DNA from: Candidatus Halarchaeoplasma halalkaliphilum | GTDB lineage: Archaea > Thermoplasmatota > Thermoplasmata > Halarchaeoplasmatales > Halarchaeoplasmataceae | Reading direction: 5' to 3' | Assembly: GCA_007133925.1 (NCBI GenBank) | Contig: SLLU01000069.1 | Location: 1-35,513, forward strand | Length of the DNA stretch: 35,513 bases | Part shown: positions 1 through 34,197 of the stretch, piece after piece | How the letters are laid out: each line of letters begins with the position of its first letter | How positions within the stretch are numbered: position 1 is the stretch's first letter | Made by a program: the position numbers and the translations under genes | Notes under the pieces: generated by a model | What the model saw: only the letters and a program-made list of their open reading frames with translations | Told to the model about the DNA's origin: nothing | Databases searched by the model: none

Positions 1-3000
1 AGGCTGGCTGCAACAACGGCAACGATGATCAGTGCGATCATCCACAAGGGAATGCCTGTGGAGGGGTCGATCACTTCGAAGGAGGCAGAAGTGTACTCAG
101 CCTCATCCCCTCGGGGATGTTCAGGACGGATCACAATTCTGTAATCTCCACCTCTATCTGGGGTGACCAGTTCGATATAGAATGAACCATCACCACTGGA
201 TATAGCATCCGCCTCAACGATGGGGGTGCCATCCGCATCCACAAGGAACGCTCGAATTAACATATCTGGGATGGGTTTGCTGTCATGATCCCTAACGATT
301 TCCCCGAAGATTTCAATGAAATCTCCTATATTCAAATCGACCTGGCTGAAGTAAACCCCAACGAACCTCAGTTCCATAGGTTCGATGGTTATTTCCCGAG
401 AGATGCTGATGTTGCCATATTCGTTTACCAACTCAACTGTGATAGTTATCGTACCTGTAGTGTCCACGTTCCAGGTCCTGGAAGCTGTCACTATCTCACC
501 TACAGGTATATCAATGGTAGTACTGCCTATGTTCTCATTCTCGTGAGAAAAGAGGATCTCCGCATCTCTGAGAACTGTTCCCCCGTTATTTTCGATATTC
601 ACGGATATCTCAAGATCATCTCGTTCCATCACGGAATCGTCTTGGATATCTTCCCCGTTAACCTTCAATTCGATTTCTGGAGAATAGAACTCCGGTTGCG
701 GCGGTGCTCTCACGAGGACTTCAGTGAAGGCTTCATTGTTATCTATGTTGTGATCTCTTGGTGGGTCCGTTTCGGGATCCACGAACACGCGGATGTGTCT
801 TACTTCCTCTATTAAATTATCATGGGATAAGGTGGCGTCCCAGAAAATGCTGGCAGTCCTTACCGCATTTCGGGATACTGCTACAGTGGCAGTATCGATA
901 AGATTGTAATTTCCGCCATCGAGAATGTAAAAGCGTACTGTTGCTTCACTCACGTCTACCATGCCCACATTTGAGATGTCTGCGGAGATGACGGCAGTTT
1001 CCCCGACCATCAGGTCCCCGGGAGCCACTTCCACGTCACCATCGGAGACAGCCAGATCCGGCGTGTACACATCTTCAAACACTACCGGGATTGTATACAC
1101 ATATACGTCGGACGGATAATTCGGAATAGCGACATCCATACTTATTTCATGTTCTTCATATTCTGCTATGAGTTCGTAGTTACCAACAAAGGTAGGACCA
1201 TGTATGTTAACTATGTCGGAAAGGGCTGGTAAATAAACGATACCGTTTGCTGTGGTTCCCGATTGACTCTCGTCAGGGTCGTATGAGCTTTCCAATGTAA
1301 CATCCACATCACCCAATAATACGTCTCCGTGGCTCCTGGTTTCCACACGAACCCATCGAGACACTTCTATCCGGCCAGTACCAGAAACCACTACGGAAGG
1401 TGTGGCCACGGCCAATAGTTTAGCCTCGGTATGTTCAAAATCGTTTAGATGACCGGTGAAGGTACTGTCAGTACCTTCCATCCTTGTGGGATTGATGTGT
1501 ATGTCAGTTGAGGTGAAAGTCGAGCCAAAGACTTCAAAAAGTTCCGATGTCACGTGCATGGGACCTCTTACCGTGCTATCGCTTATTGTCAACGTTGAAT
1601 CATCGACGGCGTGGATCCGTACTTCCATATCTATGATGCAGTCATTCCGCACTTCTAGGATTCCCTGGTCCTCTATGATTATGTTCATGCGGTAGTCCGA
1701 ATATGCCCTTATGCTATCGAACACCAATCGCCCCTGATCCCGGACTATTATTCCGTATTGATTATGCCGTTCCTGCACCATCCTAAGGTTGCCATTGATG
1801 GTGAGTTCACCGCCTTGCTCAACTACGATGAACCCGTTGGGACTGAATGTGCCTCTGCTTTGAGTATTGGCCACTATAAGATCGAAGGCGTAGTCCACGC
1901 TGAATATGGGTTTGGTAACAGTCCGGTGTGCTTCCAAAACATCATCCAGCAATACTTCCACCCTTATCTCTCTATTTCCTCGTGTGGATGGGTTCCATGT
2001 GGTGGTCACCTCCGCCGTGCCCTGGGCCGGGATCGTTAACATTTGACTGGTCCCGGTTATTTCAACATTATCCGCATAAAAGCGTACTCGAGCATCAGCC
2101 AAGGCACCCTCATTATGGATCACTGCTGTTATGTCTAAATCATTCCCCATCTCCGGAAGGTCCTCGGATAAAGATATGCTTTCCACGGATAGGATAGGGG
2201 GTTTAACGATGGTCAGATCCCGTGTCTGTTGCTGTTCGCCAAGTGTAATCATTACAACTCTCGTTTCACTTAGTTCATCCGACACCATCTGTGCCAGCCA
2301 CGTTTGTTCCACAGTGGTAGTTCCTCCGCCGATCAATTCGGGAACAAGCTTTTCGCCCACTAGAGTGCCGTCGATATAAAAATTCGCGTAAGTGCTCCTT
2401 GAACCATATTCTCCAGCATTCATTATATGGGCAGACATAGTGAGGGTTTCACCTTCGTGTATTGTGGCGGGATCAAGTTCAAAATTGGTGATCTGGAGAT
2501 CCGCCTTTTCAAGTATAGTTATCGTTCGGGTACGTACGTTATCATCTGTGGTTTGCTGATGTATCTCTCCGTCAGGGTCCACTACCACTATAATCTGGTA
2601 TGTCCCTGTAGAAGGATAATCCCATACTAATGGTTCGGTCACCACATCTTCCTCACCCTGACCTTTGATGCTTACGAACCTTGTACCGAACTGGTTTCCC
2701 GGATCCTGCTCATCGTAATAGAAGGCAACTGTAACGTTCTCCACATCCGCTTCACCCATATTGTCTATACGGGCTGAAACGTGCACTTCGGCCCCGTCTT
2801 CGACTTCACTGCCCGGGTTGAATATGATCTCCCGTACCCTCAGGTGTGCCTGGCCAGGGAGTTCCATATCGAATTCCAGATCGGTTCTGATCAGATTATC
2901 AACCAGATTCGGGAAAGATTTGAGGGAAAGGTCTCTGGAAGCTTCGATTTCGTCGATCTCAAATTCCTCGTTCTCGTAGGTACCGTCCAAAATGTATGTA

Positions 3001-6381: not shown

Positions 6382-6390
6382 AAAATAAAA
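6382..6390 (-). terminator. T-rich archaeal terminator after rps3ae-tRNA-Met
   Basis: TTTTATTTT immediately 3' of the tRNA on the minus strand. Confidence 0.45.
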
Positions 6391-6487
6391 TGTCGGGGGC
6401 GGGGTTTGAACCCGCGGCCTCTAGATGTCCCAGGAACGCTCGATTTCCCTATGAGTCTAGCGCTCCACCAAGCTGAGCTACCCCGAC
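6391..6487 (-). tRNA. tRNA-Met(CAT), elongator type, with 23-nt canonical intron (6427-6449)
   Basis: Acceptor stem GTCGGGG/CCCCGAC+A, D stem GCTC/GAGC, anticodon arm CTAGA-CTCATA^A-TCTAG, T loop TTCAAAC. Bulge-helix-bulge: helix CTCA/TGGG with bulges TAG and ACA. G1-C72 pair, so not the initiator. Confidence 0.93.
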
Positions 6488-6498
6488 ATAGGGAAACT

Positions 6499-10454: not shown

Positions 10455-11426
10455 TCATTCCAGTATATCTACGAGCTGGTTGAAAACCGCCTCGGCGGTT
10501 TGTTGTATCACCTGCTGGCGATCGCCCTTGAAATGATGTATTTCGACAGATGTATTTTGTTCCATTGCCATCCCTGTGTACACCGTCCCCACCTTCTTTA
10601 CTTTTGTAGCGCCCCCAGGTCCGGCGATACCCGTGGTACTTATACCTATGTCAACCCCTATCCGTTCTCTAACGTTCTCGGCCATACACCTGGCAACGGG
10701 CTCACTCACTGCACCGTGTTCTCTTATCAAATTGGCATCCACTTTCAACAGGTCTGTTTTTGACTGATCACTGTAAGAGATCACGCCGGCCATAAAATAC
10801 ATGGATGCGCCTGGGATGCTTGTCAGATACTGGGCGATGGCACCTCCTGTGCATGACTCTGCCGTAGCCACGGTCAATCCTTTTTTTGTCAGCAAGTGTG
10901 CAACTCTTTTCACCGGATTTTCAATACACTCCGTAAGAGGCCCACATCGAAGGGTGATATCCAACCCCTCTATATAATCTGCCACCGATGGGGGTACGAG
11001 GTGCTTCCACTCAACCCCATCATACATTTTTTCCCGTACAAGGGTTCCCTTCCAAATATCTCGATTGAACGCCTCTATGTCCACCAGTTCCACATCAATG
11101 TTACCCATGAGTTTTTTTACAACGGAAGATCGGGCATAGACCCTGTCGAATGACGGGAGCATGCTGTGGATGTAATGGGGCCATTCAGGATAACAGTGGA
11201 TATCGGGTATGGGATATATCTCATAATCCGATATGCCTTCGGCCTCCATGACCTTCCGTATCATGGTTATCCTCTCTCCACCGGAAAAGGGGTTGTCCGG
11301 AATCCGTTGGATCTGGGCACTGCCCACACCGATCATCAACACATCGCATTCCCTTTCCATCTGTTTTACGATGGCAAAATGTCCGTTATGGAAGGGCTGG
11401 AACCTGCCTATGAATAGACCCCTCAT
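10455..11426 (-). CDS. nadM: Fusion of nicotinamide-nucleotide adenylyltransferase (NadM) and CinA-C/PncC NMN deamidase
   Basis: N-terminal half: LFIGRFQPFHNGH, GVGSAQ, NPFSGGERI. C-terminal half: VATAESCTGG, YSDQSK, HGAVSE, TGIAGPGG, GDR. Confidence 0.9.
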   Translation of the reverse strand: MRGLFIGRFQPFHNGHFAIVKQMERECDVLMIGVGSAQIQRIPDNPFSGGERITMIRKVMEAEGISDYEIYPIPDIHCYPEWPHYIHSMLPSFDRVYARSSVVKKLMGNIDVELVDIEAFNRDIWKGTLVREKMYDGVEWKHLVPPSVADYIEGLDITLRCGPLTECIENPVKRVAHLLTKKGLTVATAESCTGGAIAQYLTSIPGASMYFMAGVISYSDQSKTDLLKVDANLIREHGAVSEPVARCMAENVRERIGVDIGISTTGIAGPGGATKVKKVGTVYTGMAMEQNTSVEIHHFKGDRQQVIQQTAEAVFNQLVDILE

Positions 11427-11489
11427 GATATGGGGATGATGTTATGATGTTGTATAAACATTGCGCTAACATCACTGAAAAAAACGTTA

Positions 11490-11564
11490 CGGGCGTGAGG
11501 GGATTCGAACCCCCGGTTTACAGCTTAGGAGGCTGTCGCCTTATCCAGACTAGGCCACACGCCC
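11490..11564 (-). tRNA. tRNA-Arg(CCT)
   Basis: Acceptor GGGCGTG/CACGCCC+G, anticodon arm ACAGC-CTCCTAA-GCTGT, T loop TTCGAAT. Confidence 0.95.
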
Positions 11565-11565
11565 A

Positions 11566-11694
11566 TGGTGACTCGGAAGCGGGTTTTCAGTATGACATTG
11601 AAGGCCAGCGCCATATCCAGACTATCTTCGAGAGCGGTGTTGCTGCCTCGAATGGTTCAGGGAATGTTTTTATTCCCTATGAGGCCACACGCCC
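11566..11694 (-). pseudogene. tRNA-Arg-like 5' half with 58-nt D-arm insertion and degenerate 3' half (pseudogene, split-tRNA half or tRNA-derived ncRNA)
   Basis: After removing 11624-11681, the first 28 nt match the neighbouring tRNA-Arg at 27/28. Then CTGGC-CT-TCA-AT-GTCAT. No intact T arm or acceptor 3' strand. Confidence 0.6.
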
Positions 11695-11716
11695 ATTGGA
11701 GAGGTTGGTAGAATCA

Positions 11717-11793
11717 TGGTGGGCCCGGCCGGATTTGAACCGACGACCATCTGGTTATGAGCCAGACGCTCCACCAGTCTAAGCTACGGGCCC
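11717..11793 (-). tRNA. tRNA-Ile2(CAT) (agmatidine type, AUA reader), CCA encoded
   Basis: Acceptor GGGCCCG/CGGGCCC+ACCA, anticodon arm TCTGG-CTCATAA-CCAGA. The GGGCCC acceptor is typical of archaeal Ile tRNAs. Ile2 rather than Met is an inference. Confidence 0.85.
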
Positions 11794-11840: not shown

Positions 11841-11935
11841 TGGGCCGAGGCGGGATTGAACCGCCGATCTTCGCCTTTCTTACCGTCCAATGAACGGTTG
11901 TAAGGGCGACGTCATAACCACTAGACCACCGGCCC
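11841..11935 (-). tRNA. tRNA-Val(TAC) with 22-nt canonical intron (11877-11898)
   Basis: Acceptor GGGCCGG/TCGGCCC+A, anticodon arm TCGCC-CTTACA^A-GGCGA. Strict BHB: helix CTTA/TAAG, bulges CAA and AAA, intron stem CCGTTC/GGACGG. Confidence 0.93.
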
Positions 11936-33866: not shown

Positions 33867-34197
33867 GAACAGGTGACCGTAGTAAGCCCCTTTCTGTTTC
33901 AAGACGGCATTCATCTATGCGTCCTACCCGCCGGTCCCGGAATGATCATCCCGGCATCTTTGGACTTGCTCCGGTGGGGAGTCGCCGTTTCATCGATCCC
34001 TCCGGTTCTCAGCTCTGCGGGTTAACTCACCTTGCCTTGCGGCAGGCTTCGCACACTTCACAGCTCACCGGAGGACGTGTCGTTTCTGCGCCCTTGCCGA
34101 GACTCTCGCCTCACCGCCTTGCGACGGTCCACCTTTTCCGCGGAGAGGGGACTTTCCTCAGGGTCGAACCCCGTCGGCCGTCCTCGGTCTCCTGTTC
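33867..34197 (-). ncRNA. rnpB: RNase P RNA, archaeal type A
   Basis: Conserved regions GAGGAAAGTCC, GCAGAAAC, TGAAACG, AGATGAAT, AACAGAAAGGGGCTTA. P1 is GAACAGGAGACCG/CGGTCACCTGTTC. P8 CCGTC-GCAA-GGCGG is present. Ends approximate. Confidence 0.94.

What the first reader, a model, noticed from the sequence alone, without database searches (positions are those of the whole stretch)
11566..11694. Hidden tRNA-Arg-like 5' half with TCA at the anticodon position, inside a probable Ile2-Arg pre-tRNA
Seen: on the minus strand the Ile2-Arg spacer reads GGGCGTGTGGCCT[58 nt]AGTCTGGATATGGCG-CTGGC-CT-TCA-AT-GTCAT-ACTGAAAACCCGCTTCCGAGTCACCA-T, then tRNA-Arg begins. Without the insert, the first 28 nt match tRNA-Arg(CCT) at 27/28 and keep the D-loop A after GG (A20, the Arg identity element). 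The anticodon stem differs (CTGGC vs ACAGC), which points to a different isoacceptor such as Arg-TCN rather than a plain copy. A 4-bp stem TGGC/GTCA closes a 7-nt loop centred on TCA (11599-11601). The 3' part keeps only traces (AAACC, TTCCGAGT) and ends in ACCA, one base before tRNA-Arg. No TATA-like box precedes tRNA-Arg, while one precedes tRNA-Ile. Inference: the element is co-transcribed and released during tRNA processing. Candidate explanations: 5' half of a trans-spliced split tRNA (known in Nanoarchaeum and Caldivirga, not known to me in Thermoplasmatota), a tRNA-mimic or opal-anticodon ncRNA, an integration scar, or a decaying duplicate.
Basis: partly seen in the sequence, partly recalled or inferred. 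Interest (0 to 1): 0.78.

Follow-up and report, generated by a model that had tools for sequence, protein, structure and literature searches.

The report
Partial tRNA-Arg copy carrying hairpin insert
The "hidden tRNA half" is a non-decoding partial copy of a tRNA-Arg gene's front end, split by a 58-base two-hairpin insert that recurs in front of tRNA genes throughout one family of salt-lake archaea; it is not a split or stop-codon-reading tRNA.

Summary
The split-tRNA and opal-anticodon readings are not supported. Window 11694-11600 (minus strand) copies tRNA-Arg nt 1-35, interrupted between nt 13 and 14 by a 58-nt module "M" made of two hairpins. Nt 1-24 match the adjacent Arg(CCT) gene. Nt 24-35 are identical to this genome's intact Arg(TCT) gene. 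The "TCA" is therefore TC of the TCT anticodon plus the first non-tRNA base.

The piece scores as no tRNA. Arg GCG, CCT, TCG and TCT genes are intact, no orphan 3' half was found, and TGA is the commonest stop codon.

M occurs in 24 of 44 genomes of the family and in 0 of 133 genomes from 28 other families of the class. All 32 arrays not cut by a contig end lie just upstream of tRNA-Arg(TCT/CCT), Ser(GCT) or Met(CAT), always at nt 13/14 of a partial 5' copy. Covariation is strong. M is a clean 59-nt indel between related species.

My best reading (about 0.5) is a DNA-level repeat unit: duplication or recombination across the tRNA 5' boundary, plus a site-specific mini-insertion. It would be co-transcribed as leader and discarded. 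A functional leader RNA (about 0.3) is not excluded. No transposase, integrase or carrier element was found.

The parts
11841..11935 (-). Intron-containing tRNA, anticodon TAC by the Rfam alignment; first gene of the tRNA cluster.
   Evidence: Rfam RF00005 at 54.6 bits with a 23-nt insertion after the anticodon loop. ARAGORN without the intron option missed it.
A CTTAAATA box lies about 31-38 nt upstream.
   Evidence: The Ile2-versus-Met assignment was not tested.
11695..11716 (-). 22-nt spacer between the CAT-tRNA and the partial copy. It has no room for a promoter and no A/T-rich box.
   Evidence: Sequence. Co-transcription is an inference.
11682..11694 (-). X: a copy of tRNA-Arg nt 1-13 (acceptor 5' strand, nt 8-9, D-stem 5' strand), 13 of 13 identical to the Arg(CCT) gene downstream.
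11624..11681 (-). M: the 58-nt two-hairpin module inserted between tRNA nt 13 and 14. hp1 is 11679-11658 (AGGGAAT / ATTCCCT stem). The linker GAACCA is 11658-11653. hp2 is 11652-11627 (TTCGAG / CTCGAA plus a GC/GC pair with a bulged T). GAT is 11626-11624.
   Evidence: Covariance model R1 gives 58.2 bits, E=9e-10. Fold. Covariation in relatives.
11600..11623 (-). Y: a copy of tRNA-Arg nt 14-35. 11623-11614 equals Arg(CCT) nt 14-23. 11614-11600 (ATGGCGCTGGCCTTC) is identical to the genome's Arg(TCT) gene on C147. The copy ends after the second anticodon base.
   Evidence: (the 15-nt exact match to C147:352-366).
11566..11599 (-). S: a 34-nt non-tRNA spacer that serves as the leader of the real Arg gene. 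It is homologous to the spacers of Arg(TCT)-type units in relatives. Its first base completes the apparent "TCA".
   Evidence: Alignment with G003, G020, G027 and G016 units: 57-64 of about 86 positions. No significant match elsewhere in the genome.
11489..11565 (-). The intact tRNA-Arg(CCT) gene. A run of seven T at 11484-11478 follows as the likely terminator.
   Evidence: ARAGORN and Rfam, 67.9 bits. T-run.

Best explanation
The element is a non-decoding DNA repeat unit of a kind specific to this archaeal family. It consists of a partial copy of the 5' end of a tRNA-Arg gene (nt 1-35, of Arg(TCT) type), sitting directly upstream of an intact tRNA-Arg gene and interrupted at nt 13/14 by M, a 58-nt two-hairpin insertion.

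Shown: the copy breaks off inside the anticodon, so "TCA" is TC of TCT plus the first spacer base. M is a discrete indel. It is always at the same tRNA position and in the same orientation, and it is found only in such partial copies in front of tRNA-Arg(TCT), Arg(CCT), Ser(GCT) and Met(CAT). Units come and go between species of one genus and form tandem arrays.

Inferred: the partial copy arose by duplication or site-specific recombination across the 5' boundary of a tRNA gene. M then inserted 3' of the ..GGCCT motif, and only insertions into dispensable copies survive. The window's unit came from an Arg(TCT)-type unit. Its nt 1-24 were homogenised to the neighbouring Arg(CCT) gene by recombination or gene conversion. 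The whole unit is transcribed with the CAT-tRNA and Arg(CCT), cut out by tRNase Z and RNase P, and discarded. What moves or maintains M is unknown.
For: Not a tRNA: no tRNA-model match in 11566-11694 even at E<=10, and none from ARAGORN.

Arg(TCT) identity and shared breakpoint.

Distribution: M is in 24 of 44 family genomes, 48 hits in 36 arrays, and in 0 of 133 genomes from 28 other families. In 32 of the 36 arrays a tRNA or its start lies 30-260 nt downstream on the same strand: 14 Arg-TCT, 13 Arg-CCT, 3 Ser-GCT, 2 Met-CAT. The other 4 arrays are cut by contig ends, and none has room for a tRNA but lacks one. In metagenome contigs, 6 of 7 pattern hits were confirmed by the model; 5 of those have tRNA-Arg downstream and 1 is cut by a contig end.

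Covariation: 93% of 646 cells are paired, 13 of 16 pairs change on both sides, and 0 of 500 shuffles reach the observed score.

Indel: there is a clean 59-nt gap of M between homologous units of G031/G026 (with M) and G011 (without M). M-less units also exist in G001, G061 and G065.

Turnover within the genus at this same spacer: G002 and G003 have about 27 nt and no unit, G001 has an M-less unit, and G004 has a decayed one. Contigs of relatives in runs X2 and X5 join the two tRNAs with 70 and 27 other letters.

Exchange between loci: a rare nested insertion in hp2 is present at both Arg loci of G065. M copies at different loci of one genome are 0.89-0.91 identical in G010 and G016.

Decay pattern: the pseudo-tRNA flank has decayed in G031 while its M is 98% identical to that of G023.
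Against: No mobilising enzyme or carrier was found. There are 0 matches in viral contigs, phage records and plasmids. No kilobase-sized element lies between repeated tRNA starts in any of the 44 genomes; all extra uninterrupted copies are 76-90 nt from the next one. hp2 alone occurs nowhere else. M has no terminal inverted repeats and no consistent target-site duplication. Y1 transposase presence does not track M: both 15, M only 9, Y1 only 9, neither 11 of 44 (my tally).

Several features fit a selected RNA equally well. M is better conserved than its flanks. It is always in sense orientation and lies between apparent promoters and the tRNA. A related hairpin with the same flanks marks the leaders of tRNA-Glu as well: 27 of 29 pattern matches are in tRNA leaders, against 4 matches of the reversed control pattern.
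Confidence: 0.5

Rival explanations
1. M, possibly together with the tRNA 5'-end mimic, is a functional cis-acting leader RNA or a small RNA released from the pre-tRNA. Possible roles include a protein-binding hairpin pair that controls folding, RNase P processing or the level of certain tRNAs, or an insulator that keeps the duplicated 5' strand from mispairing with the tRNA body.
For: There is strong compensatory change in both stems across 6 genera. The linkers are conserved and hp2 carries a conserved bulged pyrimidine. M is in sense orientation in 32 of 32 arrays where the tRNA is visible. It lies downstream of TATA-like boxes in L048, L023 and L042. It is better conserved than the flanking pseudo-tRNA. 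An hp1-like hairpin with the same flanks also sits in the leaders of tRNA-Glu in 4 genera, with units nearly identical between genera. In the fold of spacer plus tRNA, the upstream copy competes for the 3' acceptor strand in the centroid structure.
Against: Presence is patchy within a genus at the same locus and across the family (24 of 44). This genome's own Arg(TCT) gene has none. Copy number and order vary, and decayed copies exist. There is no excess of G-U over A-C in the stems (13 versus 15), and the antisense strand folds at least as well. There is no Rfam match. No RNA data could be laid.
Confidence: 0.3
2. It is a neutral, decaying tandem duplicate of the tRNA-Arg 5' part that happened to acquire an insertion. 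It has no mobility and no function.
For: It is a partial copy next to the intact gene. The region after nt 35 is unrelated to tRNA. The window's M has no close relative; its best identity is 0.77. Only one copy exists in this genome.
Against: The same module sits at the same tRNA position in four tRNA species and six genera, with hairpins kept by compensatory changes. M is near-identical between species while its flanks decay.
Confidence: 0.12
3. It is the 5' half of a split or trans-spliced tRNA, or an alternative 5' exon that shares the 3' half of Arg(CCT). That could yield a UGA-reading or Arg(UCN) tRNA, with the 58-nt insert acting as a D-loop intron.
For: The 5' part has tRNA-Arg sequence, including the D-loop A after GG. 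CTGGC could pair with GCTGT of the Arg(CCT) gene in 4 of 5 positions (my reading). CCTTCAA is shared by 4 of 5 aligned units.
Against: Arg TCT, TCG, CCT and GCG genes are intact. No orphan 3' half was found, and no complement to the tail. I could find no bulge-helix-bulge pairing at either border of the insert or of the larger interval (sequence; by eye only). In most relatives the copy stops at nt 24-25 or has decayed. TGA ends 385 of 634 long ORFs. The assembly is only 67% complete, so absences are provisional.
Confidence: 0.03
4. It is an assembly artefact: a chimeric join of two tRNA-Arg loci.
For: The copy is chimeric, CCT-like followed by TCT-like. tRNA genes are repeats that assemblers can mis-join.
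Against: Contigs from three runs in two studies span the whole unit with 0, 0 and 4 differences. The same architecture is present in 23 other genomes.
Confidence: 0.01

Closest known systems
Partial tRNA gene copies left beside intact tRNA genes by integrating elements in archaea. Examples: the SSV1 44-bp repeat in tRNA-Arg, pNOB8-type plasmids, PYG1 in Pyrococcus yayanosii, and the tRNA-Thr 5' fragment of Caldiarchaeum subterraneum. Sources: PMC3293823 (abstract and Discussion read) and PMC9897764 (abstract and section 12 read).
   Same: A direct repeat of one end of a tRNA gene lies next to the complete gene. The break is in the anticodon loop. Close relatives differ in presence or absence. 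Copies differ by an extra inserted sequence, as when the Caldiarchaeum attP copy carried an intron.
   Different: Here only 34-60 nt lie between the repeats, not 2-23 kb, and there is no integrase gene. The units form tandem arrays with a 76-130 nt period. The inserted module sits in the displaced fragment, not in the working gene. No free or viral form was found.
Split and tri-split tRNA genes of Nanoarchaeum equitans and Caldivirga maquilingensis. PMC4033280 and PMC3218864 were seen only in the search listing; the details are recalled.
   Same: An isolated tRNA 5' part ends near the anticodon loop.
   Different: There is no partner 3' half and no complementary leader. The isoacceptor is encoded intact elsewhere. 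The piece sits in the leader of another tRNA rather than behind its own promoter.
Non-canonical archaeal tRNA introns and their transposition between tRNA genes in Thermoproteales. The concept is recalled; PMC4090602 was seen only in the listing.
   Same: A short structured insert occupies the same position in several different tRNA sequences, with related copies in different genes.
   Different: No bulge-helix-bulge motif could be drawn. No complete tRNA gene carries M; it is only in truncated copies.
Small non-autonomous hairpin repeats moved by Y1 (HUH) transposases, namely IS200/IS605-derived PATEs and REP/RAYT elements (recalled from general knowledge).
   Same: There are no terminal inverted repeats and no target duplication. 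Hairpins lie near both ends. Insertion is orientation-specific, 3' of a short motif (..CCT). Tandem reuse of the site is possible.
   Different: The two hairpins are unlike each other. Copy number is only 1-7 per genome, and copies occur only in tRNA leaders. No full-length element with these ends was found, and there is no association with Y1 transposase genes.

Membership tests
tRNA (Rfam RF00005 / ARAGORN) | A cloverleaf with acceptor, D, anticodon and T arms that scores above threshold. | tested here: not met
   No match over 11566-11694 at E<=10. ARAGORN finds none, with or without introns. No T arm or 3' acceptor strand is present in the sequence.
Split tRNA 5' half | A separate 3' half gene exists whose upstream leader is complementary to the sequence following the 5' half. 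| tested here: not met
   Only the real Arg(CCT) gene provides a T arm followed by CACGCCC. GCCAG followed by a T arm occurs only in the real Arg(TCT) gene, plus one chance site. The tail has no complement longer than 14 nt. The assembly is 67% complete.
Split tRNA 5' half | The isoacceptor is not encoded by an intact gene. | tested here: not met
   Arg GCG (C2), CCT (C45), TCG (C73) and TCT (C147) are all intact.
Archaeal tRNA intron (bulge-helix-bulge) | Two 3-nt bulges separated by a 4-bp helix at the exon-intron borders, with complete exons on both sides. | tested here: not met
   By inspection, the 4 nt before the 5' border (TGGC) have no complement near the 3' end of the insert or of the larger interval. 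The 3' exon is missing. No dedicated BHB program was run.
att-type partial tRNA repeat from site-specific integration | A direct repeat identical to one end of the tRNA gene, adjacent to the intact gene. | tested here: met
   13 of 13 and 10 of 10 positions are identical to Arg(CCT), and the 15-mer is identical to Arg(TCT).
att-type partial tRNA repeat from site-specific integration | A mobile element with an integrase lies between the repeats, or a free form carrying the matching site exists. | tested here: not met
   Only 34 nt of spacer lie here. In all 44 family genomes the repeats are 76-130 nt apart. Nothing was found in viral, phage or plasmid collections.
MITE / PATE-like non-autonomous transposon | Terminal inverted repeats and a target-site duplication (MITE); or end hairpins shared with an autonomous IS (PATE). 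| tested here: not met
   There are no inverted termini. The flanking trinucleotides vary. hp2 does not occur outside M. The ends of an IS200-like element in G016 carry different hairpins.
MITE / PATE-like non-autonomous transposon | A discrete filled versus empty site in homologous DNA, with fixed target and orientation. | tested here: met
   There is a 59-nt indel between G031/G026 and G011. Insertion is at nt 13/14 in Arg, Ser and Met copies, in the same strand as the tRNA in 32 of 32 arrays.
Known RNA family (Rfam 15) | A match to a curated covariance model. | tested here: not met
   There is no family match at gathering score in the window apart from tRNAs and RNase P RNA, and none at E<=10 over the unit.

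The most novel reading that the evidence does not exclude
The hairpin pair, together with the short mimic of the tRNA's own 5' end, is a previously undescribed functional class of pre-tRNA leader element in this family of halo(alkali)philic Thermoplasmata. It could be a protein- or RNase P-interacting leader module that tunes maturation of particular tRNAs (Arg-AGR, Ser-AGY, Met, Glu). Alternatively, it could be a new kind of enzyme-less or trans-mobilised mini-element that targets the first nucleotides of tRNA genes and rebuilds them on insertion.
Probability: 0.3. Interest if true: 0.7.

Novelty: new variant of a known kind. Interest (0 to 1): 0.5.

Why it matters
The result removes a tempting but wrong reading, namely a split or stop-codon-suppressing tRNA in Thermoplasmatota. 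It also shows how a breakpoint inside an anticodon can mimic one.

More positively, it exposes a clade-restricted system of small structured repeats tied to the 5' ends of tRNA genes. The hairpins have been kept by compensatory change across at least six genera, with no recognisable transposase or integrase. If the units are mobile, they are a compact model for how tRNA genes gain fragments and inserts, which bears on the origin of disrupted tRNA genes. If they act as RNA, they would be a new type of archaeal pre-tRNA leader element.

There is also a practical point. Such pieces can mislead tRNA annotation and recoding predictions in metagenome-assembled genomes.

Tried and rejected
**Intron motif.** I looked for a bulge-helix-bulge motif by eye at both borders of the insert, and for the larger interval from the first copy of nt 13 to the second. 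No 4-bp central helix can be drawn. No BHB software was run.

**Strand tests for an RNA.** The stems hold 13 G-U against 15 A-C among 624 cells. The antisense strand folds better in 38 of 38 copies. Base composition explains 3.97 of the 5.63 kcal/mol difference, and only 27 of 38 copies exceed the shuffled mean. The tests are inconclusive.

**Carrier search.** The degenerate pattern of M gave 0 hits in viral contigs. blastn of the unit found nothing in phage or plasmid records. Metagenome hits were all chromosomal tRNA-Arg contexts.

**Non-family pattern hits.** Three Thermodesulfobacteriota hits scored 25.6-29.5 bits with no tRNA nearby. One Bacteroidales hit had no model match. I treat these as chance.

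**Autonomous partner.** A pattern for hp2 alone matched only at known M sites.

**Y1 transposase.** The cross-tabulation shows no useful association. Genome incompleteness and relatedness confound it.

**Promoter in the spacer.** The motif GAAAAACC(C)TTYA resembles the box upstream of Arg(TCT) loci. It lies only 10-24 nt from the tRNA start, which is too close for it to act as the promoter. It remains unexplained.

**Sequencing runs.** Neither says anything.

**Literature.** Preprint 10.1101/2025.08.03.668216 (passages read) concerns elements of Marine Group II archaea and is not relevant. Four searches listed no description of this module. Titles and abstract starts only were screened, and subscription journals are not covered.

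Full report
**1. Observation**

The minus strand of the window carries four features in order:
- an intron-containing tRNA with anticodon TAC (11935-11841);
- a tRNA with anticodon CAT (11793-11717);
- a 151-nt spacer;
- tRNA-Arg(CCT) (11565-11489), followed by a run of seven T.

Inside the spacer, the 13-mer GGGCGTGTGGCCT repeats the first 13 nt of the Arg gene. That gives 2 matches against 0.01 expected by chance. A 58-nt insert follows, and then AGTCTGGATATGGCGCTGGCCTTCAATGTCAT.

The arrangement is not a mis-assembly. Contigs from runs X1 and X4 cover 11400-11756 without a difference. A 5,372-nt contig from a different study (X2) covers 11400-11748 with four differences. X1 may be the source sample.

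**2. It is not a tRNA, a tRNA half in use, or a suppressor**
- The tRNA model gives no match over 11566-11694, even at E<=10. ARAGORN finds nothing there.
- The MAG (1.38 Mb, 160 contigs, 67% complete) encodes intact Arg GCG, CCT, TCG and TCT genes.
- Only the real Arg(CCT) gene offers a T arm followed by the matching 3' acceptor strand.
- GCCAG followed by a T arm occurs only in the real Arg(TCT) gene and at one chance site.
- The 34-nt tail has no complement longer than 14 nt in the genome.
- TGA ends 385 of 634 ORFs of 250 aa or more, so a UGA reader would be harmful.
- Because the assembly is incomplete, the absences are provisional. The presence of intact genes is not.

**3. Anatomy**

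The region after the insert holds ATGGCGCTGGCCTTC (11614-11600). This is identical to the Arg(TCT) gene on contig C147. The copy is therefore chimeric: nt 1-24 follow the neighbouring Arg(CCT) gene and nt 24-35 follow Arg(TCT). It stops after the second anticodon base.

Units in front of Arg(TCT) genes of G003, G020, G016 and G027 align with the window's nt 14-35 plus spacer at 57-64 of about 86 positions. They break at the same point: CCTTC, followed by AAT, AAC or GAT. A Met-type unit in G020 breaks after nt 33. "TCA" is thus TC of TCT plus the first spacer base.

**4. The insert is a conserved module**

A DNA search of relatives showed the same architecture elsewhere: tRNA nt 1-13, two hairpins, tRNA nt 14 onward, a spacer, then an intact tRNA.

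I built a covariance model of the two hairpins (M: 63 positions, 16 pairs). Its distribution is as follows:
- It finds M in 24 of 44 genomes of the family and in 6 of 10 genera. There are 48 hits in 36 arrays.
- It finds M in 0 of 133 genomes from 28 other families of the class.
- A strict pattern scan of about 186,000 species' genomes found it only in MAGs titled Thermoplasmata or Thermoplasmatota, plus one titled Aenigmatarchaeota that has the same tRNA-Arg context. Four low-scoring or unscored chance hits lay elsewhere.

Thirty-two of the 36 arrays have a tRNA, or its start, 30-260 nt downstream on the same strand. These are 14 Arg(TCT), 13 Arg(CCT), 3 Ser(GCT) and 2 Met(CAT). The other four arrays run off contig ends.

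In every case M sits between copies of nt 13 and nt 14 of the tRNA that follows it. Both stems covary. Ten of 14 pairs are compensatory in a MAFFT alignment. On the model-fitted alignment, 93% of 646 cells are paired, 13 of 16 pairs change on both sides, and 0 of 500 shuffles reach the observed score. Controls with slid partners fall to 0.06-0.12 against 0.43. That alignment leans towards the model, and the sequences are related.

**5. M is a discrete insertion in a pre-existing, unstable unit**

Homologous units of G031 and G026 (with M) and G011 (without M) differ by a clean 59-nt gap between GGCC(T) and (T)AGTCTGG. M-less units also occur in G001, G061 and G065. They consist of tRNA nt 1-25, a GGAAT..ATTCC hairpin, a stretch complementary to the D-loop copy, and a spacer, with a 76-90 nt period and up to three copies.

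At the very spacer of the window, the four other species of the genus differ. G002 and G003 have about 27 nt and no unit. G001 has an M-less unit. G004 has a decayed one. G003 carries M at its Arg(TCT) gene instead. The window's own genome has none at Arg(TCT). Contigs of relatives in runs X2 and X5 join the two tRNAs with 70 and 27 other letters.

In another genus (locus L048) the same tRNA(TAC)-tRNA(CAT)-Arg(CCT) cluster holds two M copies behind a TTTATATAT box.

M copies at the two Arg loci are often more alike within a genome or genus than orthologous copies are. Examples are G010 at 0.91, G016 at 0.89, and G019-TCT versus G031-CCT at 0.97. A rare nested insertion in hp2 is shared by both Arg loci of G065. 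The pseudo-tRNA flank can decay while M stays intact, as in G031.

**6. A wider hairpin family**

hp1 with its flanks (AC-N-GGGAA..TTCCC-Y-G-N-A) matches 29 places in the 44 genomes, against 4 for the reversed control pattern. Twenty-seven of the 29 are in tRNA leaders (contexts).

The new cases are tandem arrays of about 57-nt units in front of tRNA-Glu genes in four genera. ARAGORN reads TTC with an intron in L095 and CTC in L101; the other loci got odd calls. Each unit has this hairpin, a second hairpin, and a copy of the first six nucleotides of tRNA-Glu. Some units are nearly identical between genera.

GGAAY..RTTCC hairpins also follow M-less partial copies. They also lie beside a 3' fragment of the CAT-tRNA in G005. 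Other hairpin pairs repeat downstream of three tRNA-Leu genes in the window's genome.

**7. Mechanism**

The following are shown: the unit is non-decoding; M is a site- and orientation-specific indel; units are gained, lost, amplified and exchanged between tRNA loci; the hairpins are maintained.

The following are inferred. The partial copy arose by duplication or site-specific recombination across the tRNA 5' boundary. Breaks in the anticodon loop are typical of integrase sites, which I recall from the literature on tRNA integration sites. M then inserted 3' of ..CCT, and only hits in dispensable copies survive. The window's unit is of Arg(TCT) type, and its first 24 nt were homogenised to the adjacent Arg(CCT) gene.

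Only 22 nt without an A/T-rich box precede the unit, while a CTTAAATA box precedes the CAT-tRNA. The unit is therefore probably transcribed with both tRNAs and released by tRNase Z and RNase P.

Against a purely DNA-level reading: no integrase, transposase, inverted termini, target duplication, free form or autonomous partner was found. M's conservation, orientation and leader position would also suit a selected RNA. Strand-asymmetry tests did not decide between the two. I put the DNA-level repeat or mini-element reading at about 0.5 and a functional leader RNA at about 0.3.

**8. Comparison with known systems**

The nearest known things are the partial tRNA copies left by integrating elements in archaea. 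In Caldiarchaeum, a 5' tRNA-Thr fragment lies 1.8 kb upstream of the working gene, and the copies differ by an intron (PMC3293823, abstract and Discussion read). Thermococcaceae fragments flank 9-23 kb elements (PMC9897764, abstract and section 12 read).

This case differs in four ways. It has no element between the repeats. It forms tandem arrays. The structured insert is in the fragment, not the working gene. The hairpin family is clade-wide.

It fails the defining tests for a split tRNA, a BHB intron, a MITE or PATE, and any Rfam family. Four literature searches listed nothing that describes it. Only titles and abstract starts were screened.

**9. Limits**
- No RNA data could be laid.
- All genomes are MAGs.
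- Counts across related genomes are not independent.
- The BHB test was by eye.
- The Ile2-versus-Met identity of the CAT-tRNA was not tested.

Noticed in passing
L095 (G016:C5) 2600-3000; L099, L100, L101, L102, L103, L104: Tandem arrays of 2 to 8 or more units of about 57 nt lie directly upstream of tRNA-Glu genes in four genera. Each unit holds a GGGGAAC..GTTCCCC hairpin with the same flanks as hp1 of M, then GAAGTCGC, a second hairpin, and a copy of the first six nt of tRNA-Glu. Some units are nearly identical between genera.
   Followed up: partly
L079 and L080 (G065), L026 (G016): A nested insertion of about 55 nt sits inside hp2 of M at both tRNA-Arg loci of one genome. A related stretch lies in a Ser-locus unit of another genus. 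This may be a second mini-element.
   Followed up: no
L082 (G005:C215), between the CAT-tRNA and the M array: A partial copy of the 3' end of the CAT-tRNA lies about 300 nt downstream of the intact gene, next to GGAAT..ATTCC-type hairpins. Small ORFs follow on the other strand, including a 58-aa C2H2-like zinc-finger protein and a small membrane protein. It looks like an integration remnant at the 3' end of that tRNA.
   Followed up: partly
own genome C131:799-819, C132:18077-18145, C138:10342-10410; C90:1653-1695: The same pair of hairpins (AGGAAGAACTTGTTTCTTCCT and AGGGACATCAGTCCCT) recurs 45-170 nt downstream of three different tRNA-Leu genes. Two GGAAT-type hairpins follow tRNA-Ala(CGC).
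   Followed up: no
window 11566-11599 and spacers of the units in L021, L023, L025, L027, L036, L038, L045, L048: The spacer before the real tRNA carries GAAAAACC(C)TTYA. This resembles the CGAAAAACTCTTAT box upstream of Arg(TCT) loci, but it lies only 10-24 nt from the tRNA start.
   Followed up: partly
window 6390-6488 (-) and 11841-11935 (-): Two intron-containing tRNAs (CAT with a 23-nt intron; TAC with a ~22-23-nt intron). ARAGORN miscalls or misses both in default mode, but Rfam detects them.
   Followed up: partly
window 33871-34193 (-): Archaeal RNase P RNA, 221 bits and full length.
   Followed up: no
window 11489-11716 (-): In the predicted ensemble of spacer plus tRNA-Arg, the centroid structure pairs the upstream copy of nt 1-9 with the 3' acceptor strand, not the true 5' strand. 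The duplicate could therefore compete during folding.
   Followed up: no
L028 (G064:C84): Two near-identical M-bearing units lie upstream of Arg(CCT). A run of N sits between them, so the array length there is unresolved in that assembly.
   Followed up: no
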